Origin: Candidatus Thorarchaeota archaeon
GTDB taxonomy: Archaea > Asgardarchaeota > Thorarchaeia > Thorarchaeales > Thorarchaeaceae
DNA length: 64,000 nt
Direction: 5' to 3'
Assembly: GCA_003345595.1 (NCBI GenBank)
Contig: PRDI01000049.1
Coordinates: 26,294-90,293 of the forward strand
The first letter of the stretch is position 1. The number at the start of each line of letters is the position of its first letter. The notes under the pieces were generated by a model that did no database searches, was not told the origin of the DNA, and saw only the letters and a list, made by a program, of their open reading frames with translations. The translations under genes were made by a program, and so were the position numbers. Below are positions 7,029 to 63,612 of this stretch, piece by piece.

Positions 7029-7138
7029 TGGTGCTCCGGCCGGGATTTGAACCCGGGTCTGGGGATCGAGAGTCCCCAATGCTGGGCCGGACTACACTCG
7101 GCCGCACAACGAATCTCACTCGGTGCGACTACCGGAGC
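7029..7138 (-). tRNA. tRNA-Glu (anticodon CUC) with a ~32-nt non-canonical intron in the D-arm region
   Basis: Reverse complement reads GCUCCGGUAG[UCGCACCGAGUGAGAUUCGUUGUGCGGCCGAG]UGUAGUCCGGCCCAGCAUUGGGGACUCUCGAUCCCCAGACCCGGGUUCAAAUCCCGGCCGGAGCACCA. Acceptor stem GCUCCGG/CCGGAGC, anticodon arm GGGGA-CUCUCGA-UCCCC, T-arm CCGGG-UUCAAAU-CCCGG and an encoded CCA are all present. The exons match the archaeal tRNA-Glu consensus GCUCCGGUGGUGUAGUCCGGCC. Confidence 0.6.
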
Positions 7139-15061: not shown

Positions 15062-15168
15062 GCGGCCATGGTCTAGTATGGTCTAGGACGGAAGCCTCCC
15101 AAGCTTCCAACCCGAGACGGTTTCGCTGACCGCGAACTGCGGGAGTTCAAATCCCGGTGGCCGCACCA
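15062..15168 (+). tRNA. tRNA-Gly (anticodon CCC)-like gene, ~107 nt, probably with a non-canonical intron on the 3' side of the anticodon arm
   Basis: GCGGCCA...UGGCCGCACCA acceptor with encoded CCA. D-arm is GUCU-AGUAUGGUCUA-GGAC. Anticodon arm GAAGC-CUCCCAA-GCUUC is perfect. The T-loop GUUCAAAUCC is present but about 30 extra nt lie between the anticodon arm and the T-stem, and the T-stem pairing is irregular. A TATA-like TTTTATCA sits about 30 bp upstream. Confidence 0.5.
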
Positions 15169-50883: not shown

Positions 50884-51005
50884 GCGGAGGTTGCCAAGCC
50901 AGGCCAACGGCGCAGGGCTTAGGATCCTGTCACGTAGGTGTACCCGGGCTGCTTCTTTGTCAACCTGAGACCGAATCGCGAGTTCAAATCTCGCCCTCCG
51001 CACCA
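50884..51005 (+). tRNA. tRNA-Leu (anticodon UAG), type II, with a ~33-nt non-canonical intron at the variable-arm/T-stem junction
   Basis: Acceptor GCGGAGG/CCUCCGC plus A and CCA. D-arm GCCAAGCCAGGCCAACGGCG. Anticodon arm CAGGG-CUUAGGA-UCCUG. T-arm GCGAG-UUCAAAU-CUCGC. 48 nt lie between the anticodon stem and T-stem, against about 15 expected. Confidence 0.55.
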
Positions 51006-51094: not shown

Positions 51095-51193
51095 GCCGGG
51101 GTGTCCCAGCGGTAAGGAGACGGTCTCGAAATCAACACACGAGTGAACCGTTGCCCTAGTGGCTCGTGGGTTCGAATCCCATCCCCGGCGCCA
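51095..51193 (+). tRNA. tRNA-Ser (anticodon CGA), type II, with a 15-nt canonical (37/38) intron
   Basis: Acceptor GCCGGGG/CCCCGGC plus G and CCA. Anticodon stem ACGGU/ACCGU with loop CUCGAA|AUCAACACACGAGUG|A. Variable arm UGCCCUAGUGGCUC. T-arm GUGGG-UUCGAAU-CCCAU. TATA TTATATTC sits about 30 bp upstream. Confidence 0.6.
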
Positions 51194-58075: not shown

Positions 58076-58714
58076 TTGCGGCTGAGGGATCTGGAGATTG
58101 CTCTGCAGTCCATTGAGCGGCTCAGCGAACACGACGTCAATCTCGAGAGCTATCCCACACCACCAGTAGTAGCTGCCGCTGTACTCTTTGCCGCTCAGAT
58201 GGAACACGGCGACATAGCCAACAAGACAGTGTTCGATCTCGGGTGCGGGGATGGTGTGTTTGCCATCGGAGCTGCTCTGCTTGGAGCACAGCGAGTTGTA
58301 GGAGTCGATGTTCAAACCAAAGCCTTAAAGGTCTCTCAAAGAAACTCAGCCTCGCTCGGGACAGAAGGCACGACAGACTGGGTCCTGGGAGATGTCAACT
58401 CCTTAGAAGTAAGAGGATCCATTGACACTGTGGTGAGCAACCCGCCCTTCGGGGTAAAGAAGAGAGGGGCGGACCTGAAGTTCCTGAGGAAGGCAGTATC
58501 GATTGCGGGTGTGACCTATAGCATGCATCTCGCGATCGAGAAGAACCGTGTCTTCCTGAAGGAAGCGATAGAGGAACTCGGAGCAGTGGTGACACAGATT
58601 GAAACATTCGAGTTTCCGATTCCGAGAATCTACGACTTCCACAAGAAGGAGAAACACCTGATTGGTGTTGACCTCTACCGCATATGTAGGAGAGAGTGTG
58701 ACCAGAATGGCTGA
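58076..58714 (+). CDS. class I SAM-dependent RNA methyltransferase (COG2263/METTL5-like)
   Basis: VFDLGCGDGVFAIGA and catalytic VSNPPFG. Confidence 0.65.
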   Translation: MRLRDLEIALQSIERLSEHDVNLESYPTPPVVAAAVLFAAQMEHGDIANKTVFDLGCGDGVFAIGAALLGAQRVVGVDVQTKALKVSQRNSASLGTEGTTDWVLGDVNSLEVRGSIDTVVSNPPFGVKKRGADLKFLRKAVSIAGVTYSMHLAIEKNRVFLKEAIEELGAVVTQIETFEFPIPRIYDFHKKEKHLIGVDLYRICRRECDQNG

Positions 58715-59528
58715 TGTGAAGAGCGGCGATATCGTTGTCCCAGGAGACCGCCTATGTGTCATTGAGGAGCTGTCGCCCAGCGATGGCACTTATGAGAAAG
58801 AGGGAATTGTCTATGCCGCTGCGTCTGGGGGCGTCCATATCGATCTGAAAGACCGCAGCGTAAAGGTTCTCGACCATGGTGGAGCCACAAGGATTGCGCT
58901 CCCAGTCAGAGGCGATATTCTGGTAGGTGAGGTCGTAAATGTGTATGAGCAGCGGGCAGAGGTCAGTCTAGTGAAACGCAACGACGTGGATGTTCATAGC
59001 CCCTTCATTGGTGAGATACACATAAGCAACGTCACCCGCCGATACGTCAAGTCAATGCACGACGAAATCAGACTTGGCGACATCATACGTGGGATGGCAA
59101 TGAACACACATTCAATACCAGTGCAGCTCACGCTTGTCGGGCCCAACTTGGGCGTCCTGCTCGGCAAATGCTCGAAGTGCGGCAACCCGCTCACGCTCAC
59201 CACTCACAACAATCTGGTGTGCCTGAGTTGCGAGAATCGAGAAACCCGTGAGGTCGCAACCGACTATGGTCAGAGATTCGGTCTAGAGCCGCGTCCTGAC
59301 CTCGCGCCCAAGAGAAGGCCATATGATGAGCGACGGTACGACGAGGGTCGAACAGGCCGTGACCGTGAAGGCTATGGTGAAAGTCGTGGCCGGCGTGACC
59401 GTGAAGGCTACAATGAAGGCCGTGGTCGGCCTGGTCAGTTTCGCGAACGAACCAGAGGGTCGTCATACCGACCCAGTGACCGCAGGGGACAAGATGACGA
59501 CGGGCATGCCAGAGGAAGGAGGCGTTAG
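58707..59528 (+). CDS. csl4: exosome RNA-binding subunit Csl4 (S1 plus Zn-ribbon) with an Arg/Asp/Gly/Glu-rich C-terminal tail
   Basis: The S1 domain is VGEVVNVYEQRAEVSL...GEIHISNV. The Zn-ribbon is CSKCGNPL...CLSCENRE. It is followed by a ~90-aa tail DERRYDEGRTGRDREGYGESRGRRDREGYNEGRGR... Confidence 0.8.
   Translation: MADVKSGDIVVPGDRLCVIEELSPSDGTYEKEGIVYAAASGGVHIDLKDRSVKVLDHGGATRIALPVRGDILVGEVVNVYEQRAEVSLVKRNDVDVHSPFIGEIHISNVTRRYVKSMHDEIRLGDIIRGMAMNTHSIPVQLTLVGPNLGVLLGKCSKCGNPLTLTTHNNLVCLSCENRETREVATDYGQRFGLEPRPDLAPKRRPYDERRYDEGRTGRDREGYGESRGRRDREGYNEGRGRPGQFRERTRGSSYRPSDRRGQDDDGHARGRRR
59355..59426 (+). repeat. near-perfect tandem duplication (2 x ~36 nt) encoding the RDREGY(G/N)E(S/G)RGR repeat in the Csl4 tail
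   Basis: ggccgtgaccgtgaaggctatggtgaaagtcgt / ggccggcgtgaccgtgaaggctacaatgaaggccgt. Confidence 0.6.
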
Positions 59529-59566: not shown

Positions 59567-59830
59567 TTGGTAGCCGAGATACGCGGTGAAGGGCACTCAT
59601 TCTGCAATCTATTGCGTAAGACCCTCCTTGAAGAGGAGTCTGTGGAGTTCGCTGGCTACAACATCGATCACCCATTGCTTGCCAGTCCTGTGTTCACTCT
59701 GAGGACGAAGAGGCGCCAGGCAAATGTGGTTCTTAGAGAAGGCCTTGACAGGATGCTTGCAAGGACCGACGAATTTCGAAAGCGGTTTGAGCAGGCGGTT
59801 TCAGACCATGGCATCGACCAGAGCGCCTGA
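59567..59830 (+). CDS. rpoL: RNA polymerase subunit Rpo11 (RpoL)
   Basis: GEGHSFCNLLRKTLLEEESVEFAGYNIDHPL. Confidence 0.8.
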   Translation: MVAEIRGEGHSFCNLLRKTLLEEESVEFAGYNIDHPLLASPVFTLRTKRRQANVVLREGLDRMLARTDEFRKRFEQAVSDHGIDQSA

Positions 59831-59845: not shown

Positions 59846-60328
59846 GTGAGTCAATTGGCTTGGGATCGCCTGACAGAGCACAAGAATATCCGTGACATTG
59901 TGAATGACAAGGGACTTGCCAAGCTCGGCGACAGCCTTGTGAATCTCTGCTATTCTCTGGCCAAGTCGATGGTCTTGGGGGACGTCACGGGAGAAAAAGT
60001 CCAGGACCGTGTGCTTGCACGAAGCATTCGTGCAGTCCCATTATACACGCAAATCGGACACAAGACGGACATTGGCCGCGCAGCCGATGCCTATGAGGCG
60101 ATTTTCGCTTGGCTCTGGCTGAAACGAAGGGTTTCAATCGAGGCCGCCGTTGACATTATTGTGAAGGCATTGCCAATTGGTCCAGAAACAGGGCGCAAGG
60201 AAGAGGGACAAGTCGCCTCTCATGCTTTCCAAGTCTTGCTTGAGCAGACTGCATCTCAGCTACCTTCTGATCCTCTTCACATTGATATGAGCCCACAAAA
60301 CGGATCACATCCAGTCAGCAATCCTTAA
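59846..60328 (+). CDS. Mini-RNase-III-like (RNase III domain) protein
   Basis: RNase III signature-like KGLAKLGDSLVNLCYSL (compare ERLEFLGDAxL) and second catalytic block AADAYEAIFAWLWL (compare SDAFEALIGAIYLD). 160 aa with no dsRBD, like bacterial Mini-III. Confidence 0.45.
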   Translation: MSQLAWDRLTEHKNIRDIVNDKGLAKLGDSLVNLCYSLAKSMVLGDVTGEKVQDRVLARSIRAVPLYTQIGHKTDIGRAADAYEAIFAWLWLKRRVSIEAAVDIIVKALPIGPETGRKEEGQVASHAFQVLLEQTASQLPSDPLHIDMSPQNGSHPVSNP

Positions 60329-60370
60329 CTGATGAAGTTCGCTTCGATGCCGGGCACGGGGTGCCACTAT

Positions 60371-60703
60371 ATGCAGTTCTGTGAGAAGTGTGGCGCATTG
60401 ATGGTTCCTACTGTTGGAGAGGGTGGAAAGAAGGTCTTGATGTGCCGTAGCTGTGGTCACACTATGGCAGTCAAGGGCGAACTGAAAGTTTCACAGAACG
60501 TGACTAGGACGCCTCGTGACAAGATTGTTGTTGTTGAAGACGAGTCTGTTCCGATGCCAAAGACGGCTGCTGTCTGTCCGTCATGTGGGAACACAGAGGC
60601 CTACTACTGGACTGTCCAGACTAGGCGCGGCGACGAAGGCGCCACAGAATTCTACAGATGCACAAAGTGCAAGCAGACTTGGCGGTACTATGGTGGTCGT
60701 TAA
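60371..60703 (+). CDS. tfs: transcription factor S (TFS/RpoM-like)
   Basis: N-terminal Zn-ribbon CEKCG...CRSCG. C-terminal TFIIS-type ribbon CPSCGNTEAYYWTVQTRRGDEGATEFYRCTKC with acidic RGDEG. Confidence 0.8.
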   Translation: MQFCEKCGALMVPTVGEGGKKVLMCRSCGHTMAVKGELKVSQNVTRTPRDKIVVVEDESVPMPKTAAVCPSCGNTEAYYWTVQTRRGDEGATEFYRCTKCKQTWRYYGGR

Positions 60704-60798: not shown

Positions 60799-61215
60799 AT
60801 GACAGAGCACACAGCTCTGACGGATAATGACGGTGCGGACAGTTTGACTGAGGAGCAACGATTTCCCCGGACAGAACCTGCTAGACTCGTCACGATACGT
60901 AGTCTCTCCGCTAGAACGAAGGGCCCCGTGAGAATAATGTGTATAGTAGTAGATTCACGTCTTGGCACGGCACTTGTACAGGATATATATGACGAGGTGG
61001 GCAAGGCAAGACAGATCAAAGTTTCCGTCGAAGGATTGCTAGAGGTGGCTCAGAGATACATGCTGATAGGTGACATCACGGAGAAGAGTGCTCCCAACGG
61101 AAACGAGTTGATGCTCGCAGTCAGTCTGGTTTTTAACATCAACTCACTGAATCTTGAGGAATACAAGCAGGCGCTTGAACTGGAACAGAAGGTCTCTCAC
61201 ACACTAAGCAGATGA
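60799..61215 (+). CDS. hypothetical protein, possibly OB-fold nucleic-acid binding, upstream of pcna
   Basis: Alternating beta-strand pattern VRIMCIVVDSRLGTALVQD...IKVSVEG...YMLIGDI. No firm family assignment. Confidence 0.3.
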   Translation: MTEHTALTDNDGADSLTEEQRFPRTEPARLVTIRSLSARTKGPVRIMCIVVDSRLGTALVQDIYDEVGKARQIKVSVEGLLEVAQRYMLIGDITEKSAPNGNELMLAVSLVFNINSLNLEEYKQALELEQKVSHTLSR

Positions 61216-61984: not shown

Positions 61985-62133
61985 CCCCTGCGAGTGTGAA
62001 CTGTCGTTGTCGGTCACAAGAGGATTGCGATAATGGGCTCTGCAGCTCTCGAAGTGATTCTGCGTGGTCCATTGTTCGAGCATTCCGCTTGCTACCGAGC
62101 AGGAGTGACCGTTTCTTCGAGTTGATCCAGAGC

Positions 62134-63612
62134 ATGCCGACCCGCACAAAGGAAACAGACCTCAAGTTCTTGCAGCTGATGTTTCAAGACTACTACCGCA
62201 CACATCCGGATAAAGTGGATTCACCCAATCAGATTCAGATGCGTGAGTTCGCTACGGAGAGTTGGGACTACATCTGGCGCTGCCCTGAACGCGAGGTGGC
62301 CAACTCGTCTGGTCATAAGACTAAGATTGGCTGCGGACGGACCGGCAGGTCCTTCAAGAAGATACAGTCCTGTCCGAACTGTGGCTCCCCCGAGGTCCAA
62401 GCTACGAACTGGAGCCGTCATCTTGGTTTCCGAACTGCCGAAGCCCTTCGGAATGAGCTGATTGCATCTGCTCCTCACAGTGTCTATCACTCTGCCGCGT
62501 TCTACAACACCCCTGTCGCCAGGAGCATGGATGAGAAGGGGTGGCAGGGTGCAGAGCTTGTATTCGACATTGATGCCGACCACCTAGACTCTCCATGCTC
62601 CAGTATTCACGACGCTTGGAGATGTAACAACCCTGAGTGTCACGAGATCGGGACTGGCAATCCTCCCGAAACCTGCCCCAAGTGTGGTGGCCTCCGAAAG
62701 TGGAGTTGCGACAAATGCCACGAAGAAGGAAGGGAAGCACCACCAGAGATGCGCTGTCCCAAGTGTGGCAGTGAAAGAGTCAGCACACAACTGTGGGGTT
62801 TCAGCACGCGGAAGTGGGTGTGCGATAGGTGTCTTGGTGATGCCAAAAGATACACACTGAAGCTCTATGATGAATTCCTTGTGAACGATTTTGGCATCGA
62901 TCGTAGTTCCATCCAGCTGAACTACAGCGGCCATCGTGGGTATCACGTCCGTGTCAGAGACCCCAGAGTCTACAAACTGACGTCTGACGGACGAGTTGAG
63001 ATAGTCCATTACATAAACGGCGTTGGGTTCAACAGCGAGAAGTTCATTACTAAGATCTCGATGCCGCTTCCTTCGGGCGAAGTCCCTGGTTGGCCTCGAA
63101 AGATCACTGCTGCTATTGTGGAATTCATCAGGAACATTGATTCCTACGCTGGCAAGGAACGATGGATAGAGCCGCTGCGCAAACAGAGGGCTGCGGCAAT
63201 CGAGGGCCTTTTGAGGAAGCCACCCATCTTGAGCGGAAAGGTGGTGGGTGTCGGGTCCAAGTCTTGGCAGGAGATTGCTGCTCAGGCAGTCGCTTCTTAT
63301 GGCGGAAAGATAGACGTGCCAGTCACACACGACGTGCACAGGGTAATACGATTGATAGGTACTCTGAATGGGAAGACTGGCTTCACTGTAACCCCACTTA
63401 CTCGCGACCAGATTGATGACTTTGACCCATTCAGAGATGCCATAGGCCTCACGGAGGGATCGCTGAAGGTCAAGGTCAGTGGTGGCACAGCGAAGGTCCC
63501 TTCGTTCAGAATTGGAGAAACAGAGTACGGTCCGTATCAGGACGAGACTGTGGAACTGCCAATGGCGGCCGCAGTTTTCATGTTGTGTAAGGGTGTGGCG
63601 ACGATTGAGTGA
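62134..63612 (+). CDS. priS: DNA primase small (catalytic) subunit PriS with three Zn-ribbon-like CxxC pairs
   Basis: Catalytic ELVFDIDADHLD and YSGHRGYHVRV. Three CxxC...CxxC clusters: CPNCGSPE, CPKCGG...CDKCH, CPKCGSE...CDRC. Start set at the internal Met; the ORF is open from 61996. Confidence 0.7.
   Translation: MPTRTKETDLKFLQLMFQDYYRTHPDKVDSPNQIQMREFATESWDYIWRCPEREVANSSGHKTKIGCGRTGRSFKKIQSCPNCGSPEVQATNWSRHLGFRTAEALRNELIASAPHSVYHSAAFYNTPVARSMDEKGWQGAELVFDIDADHLDSPCSSIHDAWRCNNPECHEIGTGNPPETCPKCGGLRKWSCDKCHEEGREAPPEMRCPKCGSERVSTQLWGFSTRKWVCDRCLGDAKRYTLKLYDEFLVNDFGIDRSSIQLNYSGHRGYHVRVRDPRVYKLTSDGRVEIVHYINGVGFNSEKFITKISMPLPSGEVPGWPRKITAAIVEFIRNIDSYAGKERWIEPLRKQRAAAIEGLLRKPPILSGKVVGVGSKSWQEIAAQAVASYGGKIDVPVTHDVHRVIRLIGTLNGKTGFTVTPLTRDQIDDFDPFRDAIGLTEGSLKVKVSGGTAKVPSFRIGETEYGPYQDETVELPMAAAVFMLCKGVATIE

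What the first reader, a model, noticed from the sequence alone, without database searches (positions are those of the whole stretch)
59846..60328. Mini-RNase-III-like gene inside the csl4-rpoL-tfs-pcna-priS-gins51 superoperon
The 160-aa protein carries both RNase III catalytic blocks (AKLGDSLVNL and AADAYEAIFAWLWL) but no dsRBD, like bacterial Mini-III (23S rRNA maturation). RNase III-family enzymes are uncommon in archaea. Embedding in the conserved exosome/transcription/replication superoperon between rpoL and tfs suggests a role in rRNA or tRNA processing coordinated with the exosome.
Basis: partly seen in the sequence, partly recalled or inferred. Interest (0 to 1): 0.55.

Follow-up and report, generated by a model that had tools for sequence, protein, structure and literature searches.

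The report
Archaeal RNase III-like gene after rpoL
This 160-aa gene of an Asgard (Thorarchaeota-like) archaeon belongs to a small, already catalogued but never characterised archaeal branch of the RNase III nuclease superfamily, which keeps the two essential catalytic residues and sits directly after the RNA polymerase gene rpoL in every lineage examined.

Summary
ORF 59846-60328 (+) encodes 160 aa with both motif blocks at the stated positions. It matches Pfam PF11469 (Ribonucleas_3_2; 76.9 bits against a cut-off of 25) and PDB 1ZTD, an uncharacterised P. furiosus protein. It does not match PF00636/PF14622.

A 151-sequence family profile aligns to canonical RNase III domains at 94% hhalign probability (controls at most 0.6%). 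Against Mini-III alone the probability is 15%. So this is a true RNase III superfamily member with a Mini-III-like architecture (no dsRBD), but it is not a Mini-III relative.

D29 (= E. coli D45) and E84 (= E117) are essentially invariant, and N33 is invariant. D81 (= D114) is Asp or Asn. The E41 equivalent is always Ala or Ser, as it is in the active Mini-III.

The gene lies 15 nt after rpoL and 3 nt before tfs. It follows rpoL in 64 of 66 Thorarchaeota loci and in 9 of 9 divergent contexts (Asgard, TACK, Thermococci).

The most likely function is a homodimeric Mg2+-dependent duplex-RNA endonuclease in housekeeping RNA processing. Its substrate is unknown. I rate it a new member of a known, uncharacterised family, of moderate interest.

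The parts
59846..60328 (+). Complete ORF (GTG start, 160 aa plus stop) encoding the PF11469 RNase III-like protein
   Evidence: dN/dS 0.14 against L001
59903..60259 (+). RNase III-like all-helical core (aa 20-138): helices 22-44, 54-62, 67-70, 76-92, 98-108 and 117-138
   Evidence: Pfam match to aa 22-138; AF2 model pLDDT 86.7; hhalign to canonical RIIID over aa 20-106
59918..59947 (+). Block 1 / signature helix, AKLGDSLVNL. G28-D29 (D29 = E. coli D45) and N33 are invariant across the family. A25 occupies the E41 position.
60080..60121 (+). Block 2, AADAYEAIFAWLWL. D81 (= E. coli D114; D in 123 and N in 23 of 149 sequences). E84 (= E117; 146 of 148).
60260..60325 (+). Predicted disordered C-terminal tail (aa 139-160) ending in the motif SHPVSNP, shared only with the closest subclade
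   Evidence: pLDDT about 50; alignment A1; tail end conserved in L001 while the preceding residues diverge
59567..59830 (+). rpoL (RNA polymerase subunit L). It ends 15 nt before the gene's start and is the invariant upstream neighbour.
60332..60703 (+). tfs (transcription factor S). It starts 3 nt after the gene's stop codon.
58662..59528 (+). csl4 (exosome cap subunit), upstream member of the same gene array

Best explanation
The gene encodes a member of the archaeal RNase III-like family PF11469, whose solved representative is 1ZTD from P. furiosus. It is a compact all-helical RNase III catalytic domain with no dsRNA-binding domain. By analogy with every characterised single-domain RNase III, it most likely acts as a homodimer. 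In that model, each subunit contributes a metal site built from D29 and N33 on the signature helix and from D81 and E84 on the second helix, and the pair of sites cuts both strands of an RNA duplex in a Mg2+-dependent reaction. It is co-transcribed with rpoL and tfs as part of the housekeeping information-processing superoperon, and serves constitutive RNA processing or turnover. Substrate choice probably relies on the catalytic domain itself or on a partner protein, as Mini-III relies on L3.

Shown here: family membership, superfamily homology, conservation of the catalytic residues, and operon position.

Inferred: dimerisation, catalytic activity, an RNA-duplex substrate, and the physiological role.
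For: - PF11469 hit at 76.9 bits against a cut-off of 25. 1ZTD matches at E = 7e-12 by sequence and at Foldseek E = 1e-5 with TM 0.81 by structure.
- hhalign of the family against canonical RIIIDs (E. coli, Drosha a and b) gives 94% probability, E = 1.4e-7, over 85 columns with both blocks in register. Reversed and shuffled controls give at most 0.6%.
- 11 of 39 diverse members give sub-threshold PF00636 hits, while every other Pfam family is hit by one member only.
- Across 151 sequences, D29 is kept in 142 of 143, E84 in 146 of 148 and N33 in 146 of 146. D81 is Asp in 123 and Asn in 23.
- E117 of E. coli is the essential residue bridging both metals (PMC3867540).
- The active Mini-III, whose catalytic D23 and E106 are the residues mutated in PDB 6tnn and 4oun, also has Ala at the E41 position and Thr at the D114 position. 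The missing Glu is therefore compatible with activity.
- The gap from rpoL is 15 nt in the window and has a median of 18.5 nt in 64 loci. The gap to tfs is 3 nt in the window and has a median of 38 nt in 65 loci.
- A PF11469-NUDIX fusion exists in one lineage.
- There is no defence or phage association.
Against: - No member of the family has been assayed. The literature calls the Pyrococcus protein 'of unknown function' (PMC7758197).
- Both Glu residues of the canonical ExLExLGD motif are absent throughout the family.
- About 15% of members have Asn at the D114 position.
- Dimerisation could not be tested.
- The superoperon mixes genes of many functions, so position predicts function only weakly.
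Confidence: 0.6

Rival explanations
1. A non-catalytic RNase III-like domain. The protein would bind RNA, or act as a scaffold or assembly factor for the RNA polymerase D/L platform, without cutting. This resembles the degenerate RNase III domains of mitoribosomal and editosome proteins.
For: - The E38 and E41 equivalents are never acidic, and D81 is Asn in 23 of 149 sequences.
- No canonical Pfam hit passes threshold.
- The gene is strictly adjacent to rpoL in all lineages.
Against: - D29, N33 and E84 are near-invariant across members only 22-37% identical to the window protein. That is not expected if the metal site were dispensable.
- Degenerate RNase III domains typically lose these residues (established knowledge, not tested here).
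- Mini-III is active with even fewer canonical carboxylates.
Confidence: 0.2
2. One reading: an archaeal counterpart of bacterial Mini-III that matures 23S rRNA ends, working with the exosome.
For: - The architecture is the same: an RIIID with no dsRBD, about 140 aa.
- Ala occupies the E41 position in both.
- csl4 lies in the same array.
- The excision of LSU helix H98 in Thermococcales has no assigned enzyme, and this protein has been named as a candidate (PMC7758197).
Against: - hhalign against Mini-III alone gives 15% and aligns only block 2, compared with 94% against canonical RIIIDs.
- Family-profile and single-sequence searches of PDB do not retrieve Mini-III.
- The Mini-III-specific insert (RGRNAKSGTxPKNTD) has no counterpart.
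- Archaeal rRNA stems are processed at bulge-helix-bulge motifs by EndA (PMC8339473).
- csl4 is separated from the gene by rpoL, and in some lineages also by DUF2067.
Confidence: 0.12
3. An unrelated alpha-helical protein whose resemblance to RNase III is coincidental.
For: - Foldseek gives no significant hit to canonical RNase III.
- hmmsearch with the family profile against PDB finds only 1ZTD.
Against: - hhalign gives 94% with clean controls.
- PF00636 sub-threshold hits recur in 11 of 39 members.
- The catalytic residues align in register.
- RNase III chains are enriched in the Foldseek tail: 2ez6, 9asn, 1jfz, 5f3p, 6tnn, 1rc7.
Confidence: 0.03

Closest known systems
Pfam PF11469 (Ribonucleas_3_2) / PDB 1ZTD, hypothetical protein Pfu-631545-001 of Pyrococcus furiosus
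   Same: It is a member. It makes a full-length profile match. It is 35% identical to 1ZTD with TM 0.81. It has the same invariant G-D...N and D/N..E residues. Its position after rpoL matches that of the Thermococci-like homologue.
   Different: The window protein has an extra 22-aa disordered tail with a terminal PVSNP motif, found only in its closest subclade. The family itself has no assigned function.
Class 1 bacterial RNase III (Rnc) catalytic domain, PF00636/PF14622 (E. coli 7R97, Aquifex 1JFZ/2EZ6) and eukaryotic Drosha RIIIDs
   Same: It is homologous at profile level (94%). D45, D114 and E117 are retained as D29, D81 and E84. The order of helices is the same.
   Different: It has no dsRBD. 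It lacks E38 and E41 and the loop containing E65. It is shorter. It falls below Pfam thresholds for these models. Its distribution is restricted to archaea.
Bacterial Mini-III (MrnC/YazC; PDB 4OUN, 6TNN, 1U61, 2GSL)
   Same: It is a dsRBD-less single RIIID of similar size, with Ala at the E41 position. The precedent is that such a protein is an active, site-specific dsRNA nuclease that uses a protein cofactor (PMC3867540).
   Different: There is no specific sequence relationship (hhalign 15%, block 2 only). Mini-III has Thr at the D114 position, while this family keeps Asp or Asn. The Mini-III insert is absent. The phyletic range and genomic context differ.
Canonical rnc (RIIID + dsRBD) genes next to Argonaute in Lokiarchaeia (bioRxiv 10.1101/2023.12.14.571608)
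   Same: It is an RNase III-superfamily gene in Asgard archaea.
   Different: Those genes are bacterial-type Rnc with a dsRBD, found in Argonaute/helicase clusters. This gene is a different family in the housekeeping superoperon, with no defence association.

Membership tests
PF11469 Ribonucleas_3_2 (archaeal RNase III-like) | Score above Pfam's gathering threshold with near full-length profile coverage | tested here: met
   76.9 bits against 25; profile positions 1-116 of 119
PF11469 Ribonucleas_3_2 (archaeal RNase III-like) | Family-invariant residues G-D-x3-N and (D/N)-x2-E | tested here: met
   G28, D29, N33, D81 and E84 are present; conservation measured over 151 sequences
PF11469 Ribonucleas_3_2 (archaeal RNase III-like) | Fold of the solved member 1ZTD | tested here: met
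   AF2 model pLDDT 86.7; Foldseek E = 1e-5, TM 0.81, rmsd 2.4
RNase III superfamily (RIIID) | Detectable homology to canonical RNase III catalytic domains | tested here: met
   hhalign 94% (E = 1.4e-7), controls at most 0.6%; 11 of 39 members give weak PF00636 hits
RNase III superfamily (RIIID) | Hit to PF00636 or PF14622 above the gathering score | tested here: not met
   No such hit for the window protein at E up to 10
RNase III superfamily (RIIID) | Four catalytic carboxylates (E. coli E41, D45, D114, E117) | tested here: inconclusive
   Three of the four are present (D29, D81, E84). The E41 position is Ala or Ser in the whole family. Mini-III keeps only two and is active.
RNase III superfamily (RIIID) | Homodimer forming a catalytic valley; Mg2+-dependent dsRNA cleavage | not testable with these tools
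No biochemical data were found.
Mini-III (MrnC, COG1939) | RIIID only, no dsRBD | tested here: met
   A single domain is detected and aa 139-160 are disordered
Mini-III (MrnC, COG1939) | Specific sequence similarity to Mini-III proteins, including their characteristic insert between the two catalytic helices | tested here: not met
   hhalign 15%, with only block 2 aligned; 6% against the single sequence; PDB searches do not retrieve 4OUN, 6TNN, 1U61 or 2GSL
Mini-III (MrnC, COG1939) | 23S rRNA end maturation stimulated by ribosomal protein L3 | not testable with these tools
   Requires biochemistry or genetics

The most novel reading that the evidence does not exclude
PF11469 could be the long-missing native archaeal duplex-RNA endonuclease. 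On this reading it has been inherited together with rpoL since before the split of Thermococci, TACK and Asgard, and it has a specific essential substrate. Two candidates stand out. The first is the unexplained double hydrolytic excision or processing of LSU rRNA helix H98/ES39. The lineages carrying the family (Thermococcales, Asgard) are those with the largest archaeal H98/ES39 (PMC7758197, PMC7594248). The second is co-transcriptional cleavage of nascent RNA on RNA polymerase, docked through the D/L platform.
Probability: 0.15. Interest if true: 0.75.

Novelty: new member of a known kind. Interest (0 to 1): 0.45.

Why it matters
Reviews state that RNase III is absent from, or only accidental to, Archaea, and that how archaea process double-stranded RNA is unknown (PMC8708148, PMC3867540). 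This family is archaeal-specific, keeps the indispensable catalytic residues, and holds a fixed position next to rpoL in Thermococci, TACK and Asgard lineages. That pattern argues for an old, vertically inherited housekeeping nuclease rather than a stray bacterial import. The Thermococcales orthologue lies in a genetically tractable group and a crystal structure already exists, so the question can be tested directly. The gene itself, however, is already catalogued and annotated as 'ribonuclease III family protein'.

Tried and rejected
1. Sequence and profile searches of PDB for canonical RNase III or Mini-III found only 1ZTD.
3. hhalign with single-sequence templates was too weak: 6% for Mini-III and 28% for E. 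coli. This was resolved with small multi-sequence profiles plus controls.
4. I tested the idea of an autoregulatory hairpin at the rpoL/gene junction. It was prompted by E. coli rnc autoregulation and by a TEX-resistant hairpin at the T. kodakarensis rpoL 3' end (PMC4247193). The window's stem, 59792-59808 with 59856-59872, has z = -1.46 and is not conserved in 30 Thor junctions (57.5% of cells paired against 55.7% in shuffles; RNAalifold predicts 0 pairs). The idea is rejected for this lineage.
5. A defence or mobile-element origin is not supported: there are no PADLOC hits and no significant PHROGs hit.
7. The genome-contig scan used Thor-specific peptide patterns and therefore returned only close relatives. 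It does not measure the family's full distribution.
8. The Koonin 2001 superoperon paper was not available.

Full report
**Observation**

It has a GTG start at 59846, its stop codon ends at 60328, and it encodes 160 aa. AKLGDSLVNL is residues 25-34 and AADAYEAIFAWLWL is residues 79-92. The two 50-aa ORFs on the opposite strand have no support. The protein is real and under purifying selection: 356 database homologues all carry the same Pfam domain, and dN/dS against the closest ortholog (L001, 89% identical) is 0.14.

**Family assignment**

Pfam gives a single clear hit, PF11469 'Ribonucleas_3_2, Ribonuclease III' (E = 2.3e-21, 76.9 bits against a gathering score of 25, profile positions 1-116 of 119). 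NCBIfam has no model for it. The only solved relative is 1ZTD, a structural-genomics 'hypothetical protein' from Pyrococcus furiosus. It matches at E = 7e-12 by sequence and 9e-17 with a family profile. An AlphaFold model of the window protein (pLDDT 86.7, eight helices, disordered after residue 139) matches it by Foldseek at E = 1e-5, TM 0.81 and rmsd 2.4 A.

**Is PF11469 truly related to RNase III?**

The name alone is not a test, so I checked independently.

- Eleven of 39 diverse family members give sub-threshold hits to PF00636 (best E = 0.0039). Every other Pfam family is touched by only one member, as expected of noise.
- I built profiles from PDB-verified sequences: E. coli RNase III and both Drosha RIIIDs, and three Mini-III chains. 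hhalign of a 151-sequence family alignment against the canonical profile gives 94.0% probability, E = 1.4e-7, over 85 columns with both catalytic helices in register.
- A column-reversed target gives 0.6%, and 20 column-shuffled targets give at most 0.4%.
- Canonical RNase III chains (Aquifex 2EZ6/1JFZ/1RC7, Drosha 9ASN, Entamoeba Dicer 5F3P, Mini-III 6TNN) appear in the Foldseek list, but only at non-significant E-values of 2-7 and TM 0.33-0.50.

I conclude that superfamily membership is well supported by profiles and only weakly by structure search.

**Relation to Mini-III**

Against the Mini-III profile alone, hhalign gives 15% and aligns only block 2. Against the single B. subtilis sequence it gives 6%. 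The Mini-III-specific insert between the two catalytic helices has no counterpart. The resemblance is therefore one of architecture (an RIIID with no dsRBD, about 140 aa) and not of descent.

**Catalytic residues**

The hhalign register maps the window protein onto E. coli RNase III as follows.

| Window residue | E. coli RNase III residue |
|---|---|
| K22 | E38 |
| A25 | E41 |
| D29 | D45 |
| N33 | S49 |
| D81 | D114 |
| E84 | E117 |

Conservation over the window protein plus 150 cluster representatives is as follows (the 150 are the best-scoring of 229 representatives with E below 0.001 among 1.84 billion proteins).

| Position | Conservation |
|---|---|
| G28 | 143 of 143 |
| D29 | 142 of 143 |
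| N33 | 146 of 146 |
| E84 | 146 of 148 |
| D81 | Asp in 123, Asn in 23 |
| Position 25 | Ala in 119, Ser in 19; never acidic |

E117 is the functionally essential residue bridging both metals (PMC3867540). The catalytically dead Mini-III variants used for structures are D23N (6TNN) and E106Q (4OUN), which are the equivalents of D29 and E84. In the alignment, Mini-III has Ala at the E41 position and Thr at the D114 position. The archaeal family thus keeps more of the canonical site than an enzyme known to be active. D29 and N33 (i, i+4) and D81 and E84 (i, i+3) lie on single faces of the two long helices of the model. This pattern argues for a functional metal site, but no activity has been shown.

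**Genomic context**

The gene starts 15 nt after the rpoL stop, and tfs starts 3 nt after its stop codon. In 66 loci from Thorarchaeota and related Asgard genomes, the order PolD-small / Orc1(-) / methyltransferase / Csl4 / RpoL / this gene / TFS / OB-fold protein / PCNA / PriS is nearly invariant. RpoL is immediately upstream in 64 of 66 loci and TFS is downstream in 65 of 66. The median spacers are 18.5 nt and 38 nt.

More telling, members only 22-37% identical to the window protein occupy the same slot in nine divergent contexts:

- a Promethearchaeota contig, where tfs is inverted (L067);
- Jordarchaeaceae (L069/L070);
- an unnamed lineage (L071/L072);
- a TACK-like contig (L074);
- Culexarchaeia (L076);
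- Lokiarchaeia, where the rest of the array is dispersed but RpoL and this gene stay together (L077);
- a NUDIX-fusion variant (L078);
- a Thermococci-like contig whose protein is 62% identical to 1ZTD, arranged Csl4-DUF2067-RpoL-gene and then unrelated genes (L073).

The invariant neighbour is therefore rpoL, not csl4 or tfs.

**Distribution**

Named members come from Thorarchaeota, Sifarchaeia/Borrarchaeum, Hodarchaeota, Ranarchaeia, Jord-/Freyarchaeota, Hermodarchaeota, Lokiarchaeia, Promethearchaeota and Culexarchaeia. A survey of complete genomes found PF11469 only in Thermococcaceae and Thermofilaceae (bioRxiv 10.1101/705046). The same position in three major archaeal divisions suggests old, mainly vertical inheritance with many losses. 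I did not test this by tree reconciliation.

**What is known**

I found no functional study. [quoted passage not shown] Canonical rnc genes with a dsRBD occur next to Argonaute in some Lokiarchaeia (bioRxiv 10.1101/2023.12.14.571608), but those belong to a different family and context. NCBI already annotates homologues as 'ribonuclease III family protein'.

**Mechanism**

The best-supported reading is a homodimeric, Mg2+-dependent endonuclease acting on RNA duplexes, expressed constitutively with rpoL and tfs (confidence about 0.6). The main rival is a non-catalytic RNase III-like scaffold or polymerase-assembly factor (about 0.2).

One speculative link is worth testing. Thermococcales excise LSU helix H98 by two hydrolytic cuts made by an unknown enzyme (PMC7758197). 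H98 is the base of ES39, which is larger in all Asgard than in any other archaeon, while P. furiosus has the largest ES39 outside Asgard (PMC7594248). Thermococcales and Asgard are also where most members of this family are found. Against this link, ES39 is described as part of the Lokiarchaeota LSU rRNA rather than as an excised segment (PMC7594248; that it is retained in mature transcripts is my recollection of that paper, not a passage retrieved here).

**Rejected lead**

A long-range stem enclosing the rpoL stop and the gene's start (59792-59808 with 59856-59872) is not significant (z = -1.46). It is also not conserved in 30 orthologous junctions.

**Verdict**

This is a new member of a known but uncharacterised family, of moderate interest.

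Noticed in passing
window 60799-61215 (+): A 138-aa protein lies between tfs and pcna. It has a weak Ten1_2 (CST complex OB-fold) hit at E = 0.0016. It is conserved at this position in 62 of 66 Thor loci. Its counterparts hit Ten1_2 (faint or weak) in L067 and L078, and the tRNA_anti-codon OB fold in Jordarchaeaceae (L069). It may be a small ssDNA-binding OB-fold subunit linked to the replisome genes.
   Followed up: partly
window 58662-59528 (+), aa ~205-288: Csl4 carries a C-terminal tail of about 85 aa rich in Arg/Gly/Asp/Glu (RGRDREGYGESRGRRDREGY...), reminiscent of eukaryotic RGG/RG RNA-binding tails. tblastn match lengths suggest that only the closest relatives share it.
   Followed up: no
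window 61996-63612 (+): PriS is unusually long (538 aa) with several Zn-ribbon-like CxxC pairs before the primase domain. In Thor loci it follows PCNA directly, whereas the other lineages have PCNA-PriL-PriS (L067, L069, L071, L074, L076).
   Followed up: partly
window 60293-60325 (+), aa 150-160: The extreme C-terminus PQNGSHPVSNP is conserved in L001, and appears as S-Y-P-V-S-K-P in P0004, P0012 and P0013, while the rest of the disordered tail diverges. It may be a short docking motif. Most family members lack it.
   Followed up: partly
L049 and L053 (CP070658.1, Thorarchaeota bin8 chromosome, ~0.78 Mb and ~1.28 Mb): This closed MAG chromosome carries two copies of the rpoL / RNase III-like / tfs segment. 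One copy is attached to the upstream half of the superoperon (PolD...TFS) and the other to the downstream half (RpoL...PriS). This is either a duplication that split the array or an assembly artefact.
   Followed up: no
L071 6500-6841, L074 6380-6832, L077 5458-6018: A second putative nuclease gene, Endo_dU (PF01949), lies immediately after the RNase III-like gene in several non-Thor lineages. An unannotated 143-aa gene occupies the same slot in Culexarchaeia (L076 5380-5811).
   Followed up: no
L078 4771-5556 (P0391/P0237): This is a natural fusion of the PF11469 domain to a C-terminal NUDIX hydrolase domain (E = 5.5e-22). It still lies directly after rpoL and before tfs.
   Followed up: partly
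L067 4161-4637; L069/L070 7027-7512: An Arf/Ras-family small GTPase gene is inserted between tfs and the OB-fold gene of the superoperon in Promethearchaeota and Jordarchaeaceae contigs.
   Followed up: no
L077 4442-4942; L078 4253-4771: RpoL is extended to 166-172 aa in these lineages, against 87 aa in the window. In L078 the extension has an HHH_5 (helix-hairpin-helix) domain.
   Followed up: no
window 50884-51002, 51095-51190, 15062-15165 (+), 7040-7098 (-): Rfam detects four tRNA genes. Three of them span 96-119 nt, which is consistent with intron-containing archaeal tRNAs.
   Followed up: no
window 58662-58714: The listed TTG start of csl4 overlaps the methyltransferase gene by 53 nt. An in-frame ATG at about 58710 (MADVKSG...) would give the 4-nt overlap typical of coupled genes, and it matches where the Csl4 profile alignment begins (aa 23).
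   Followed up: no
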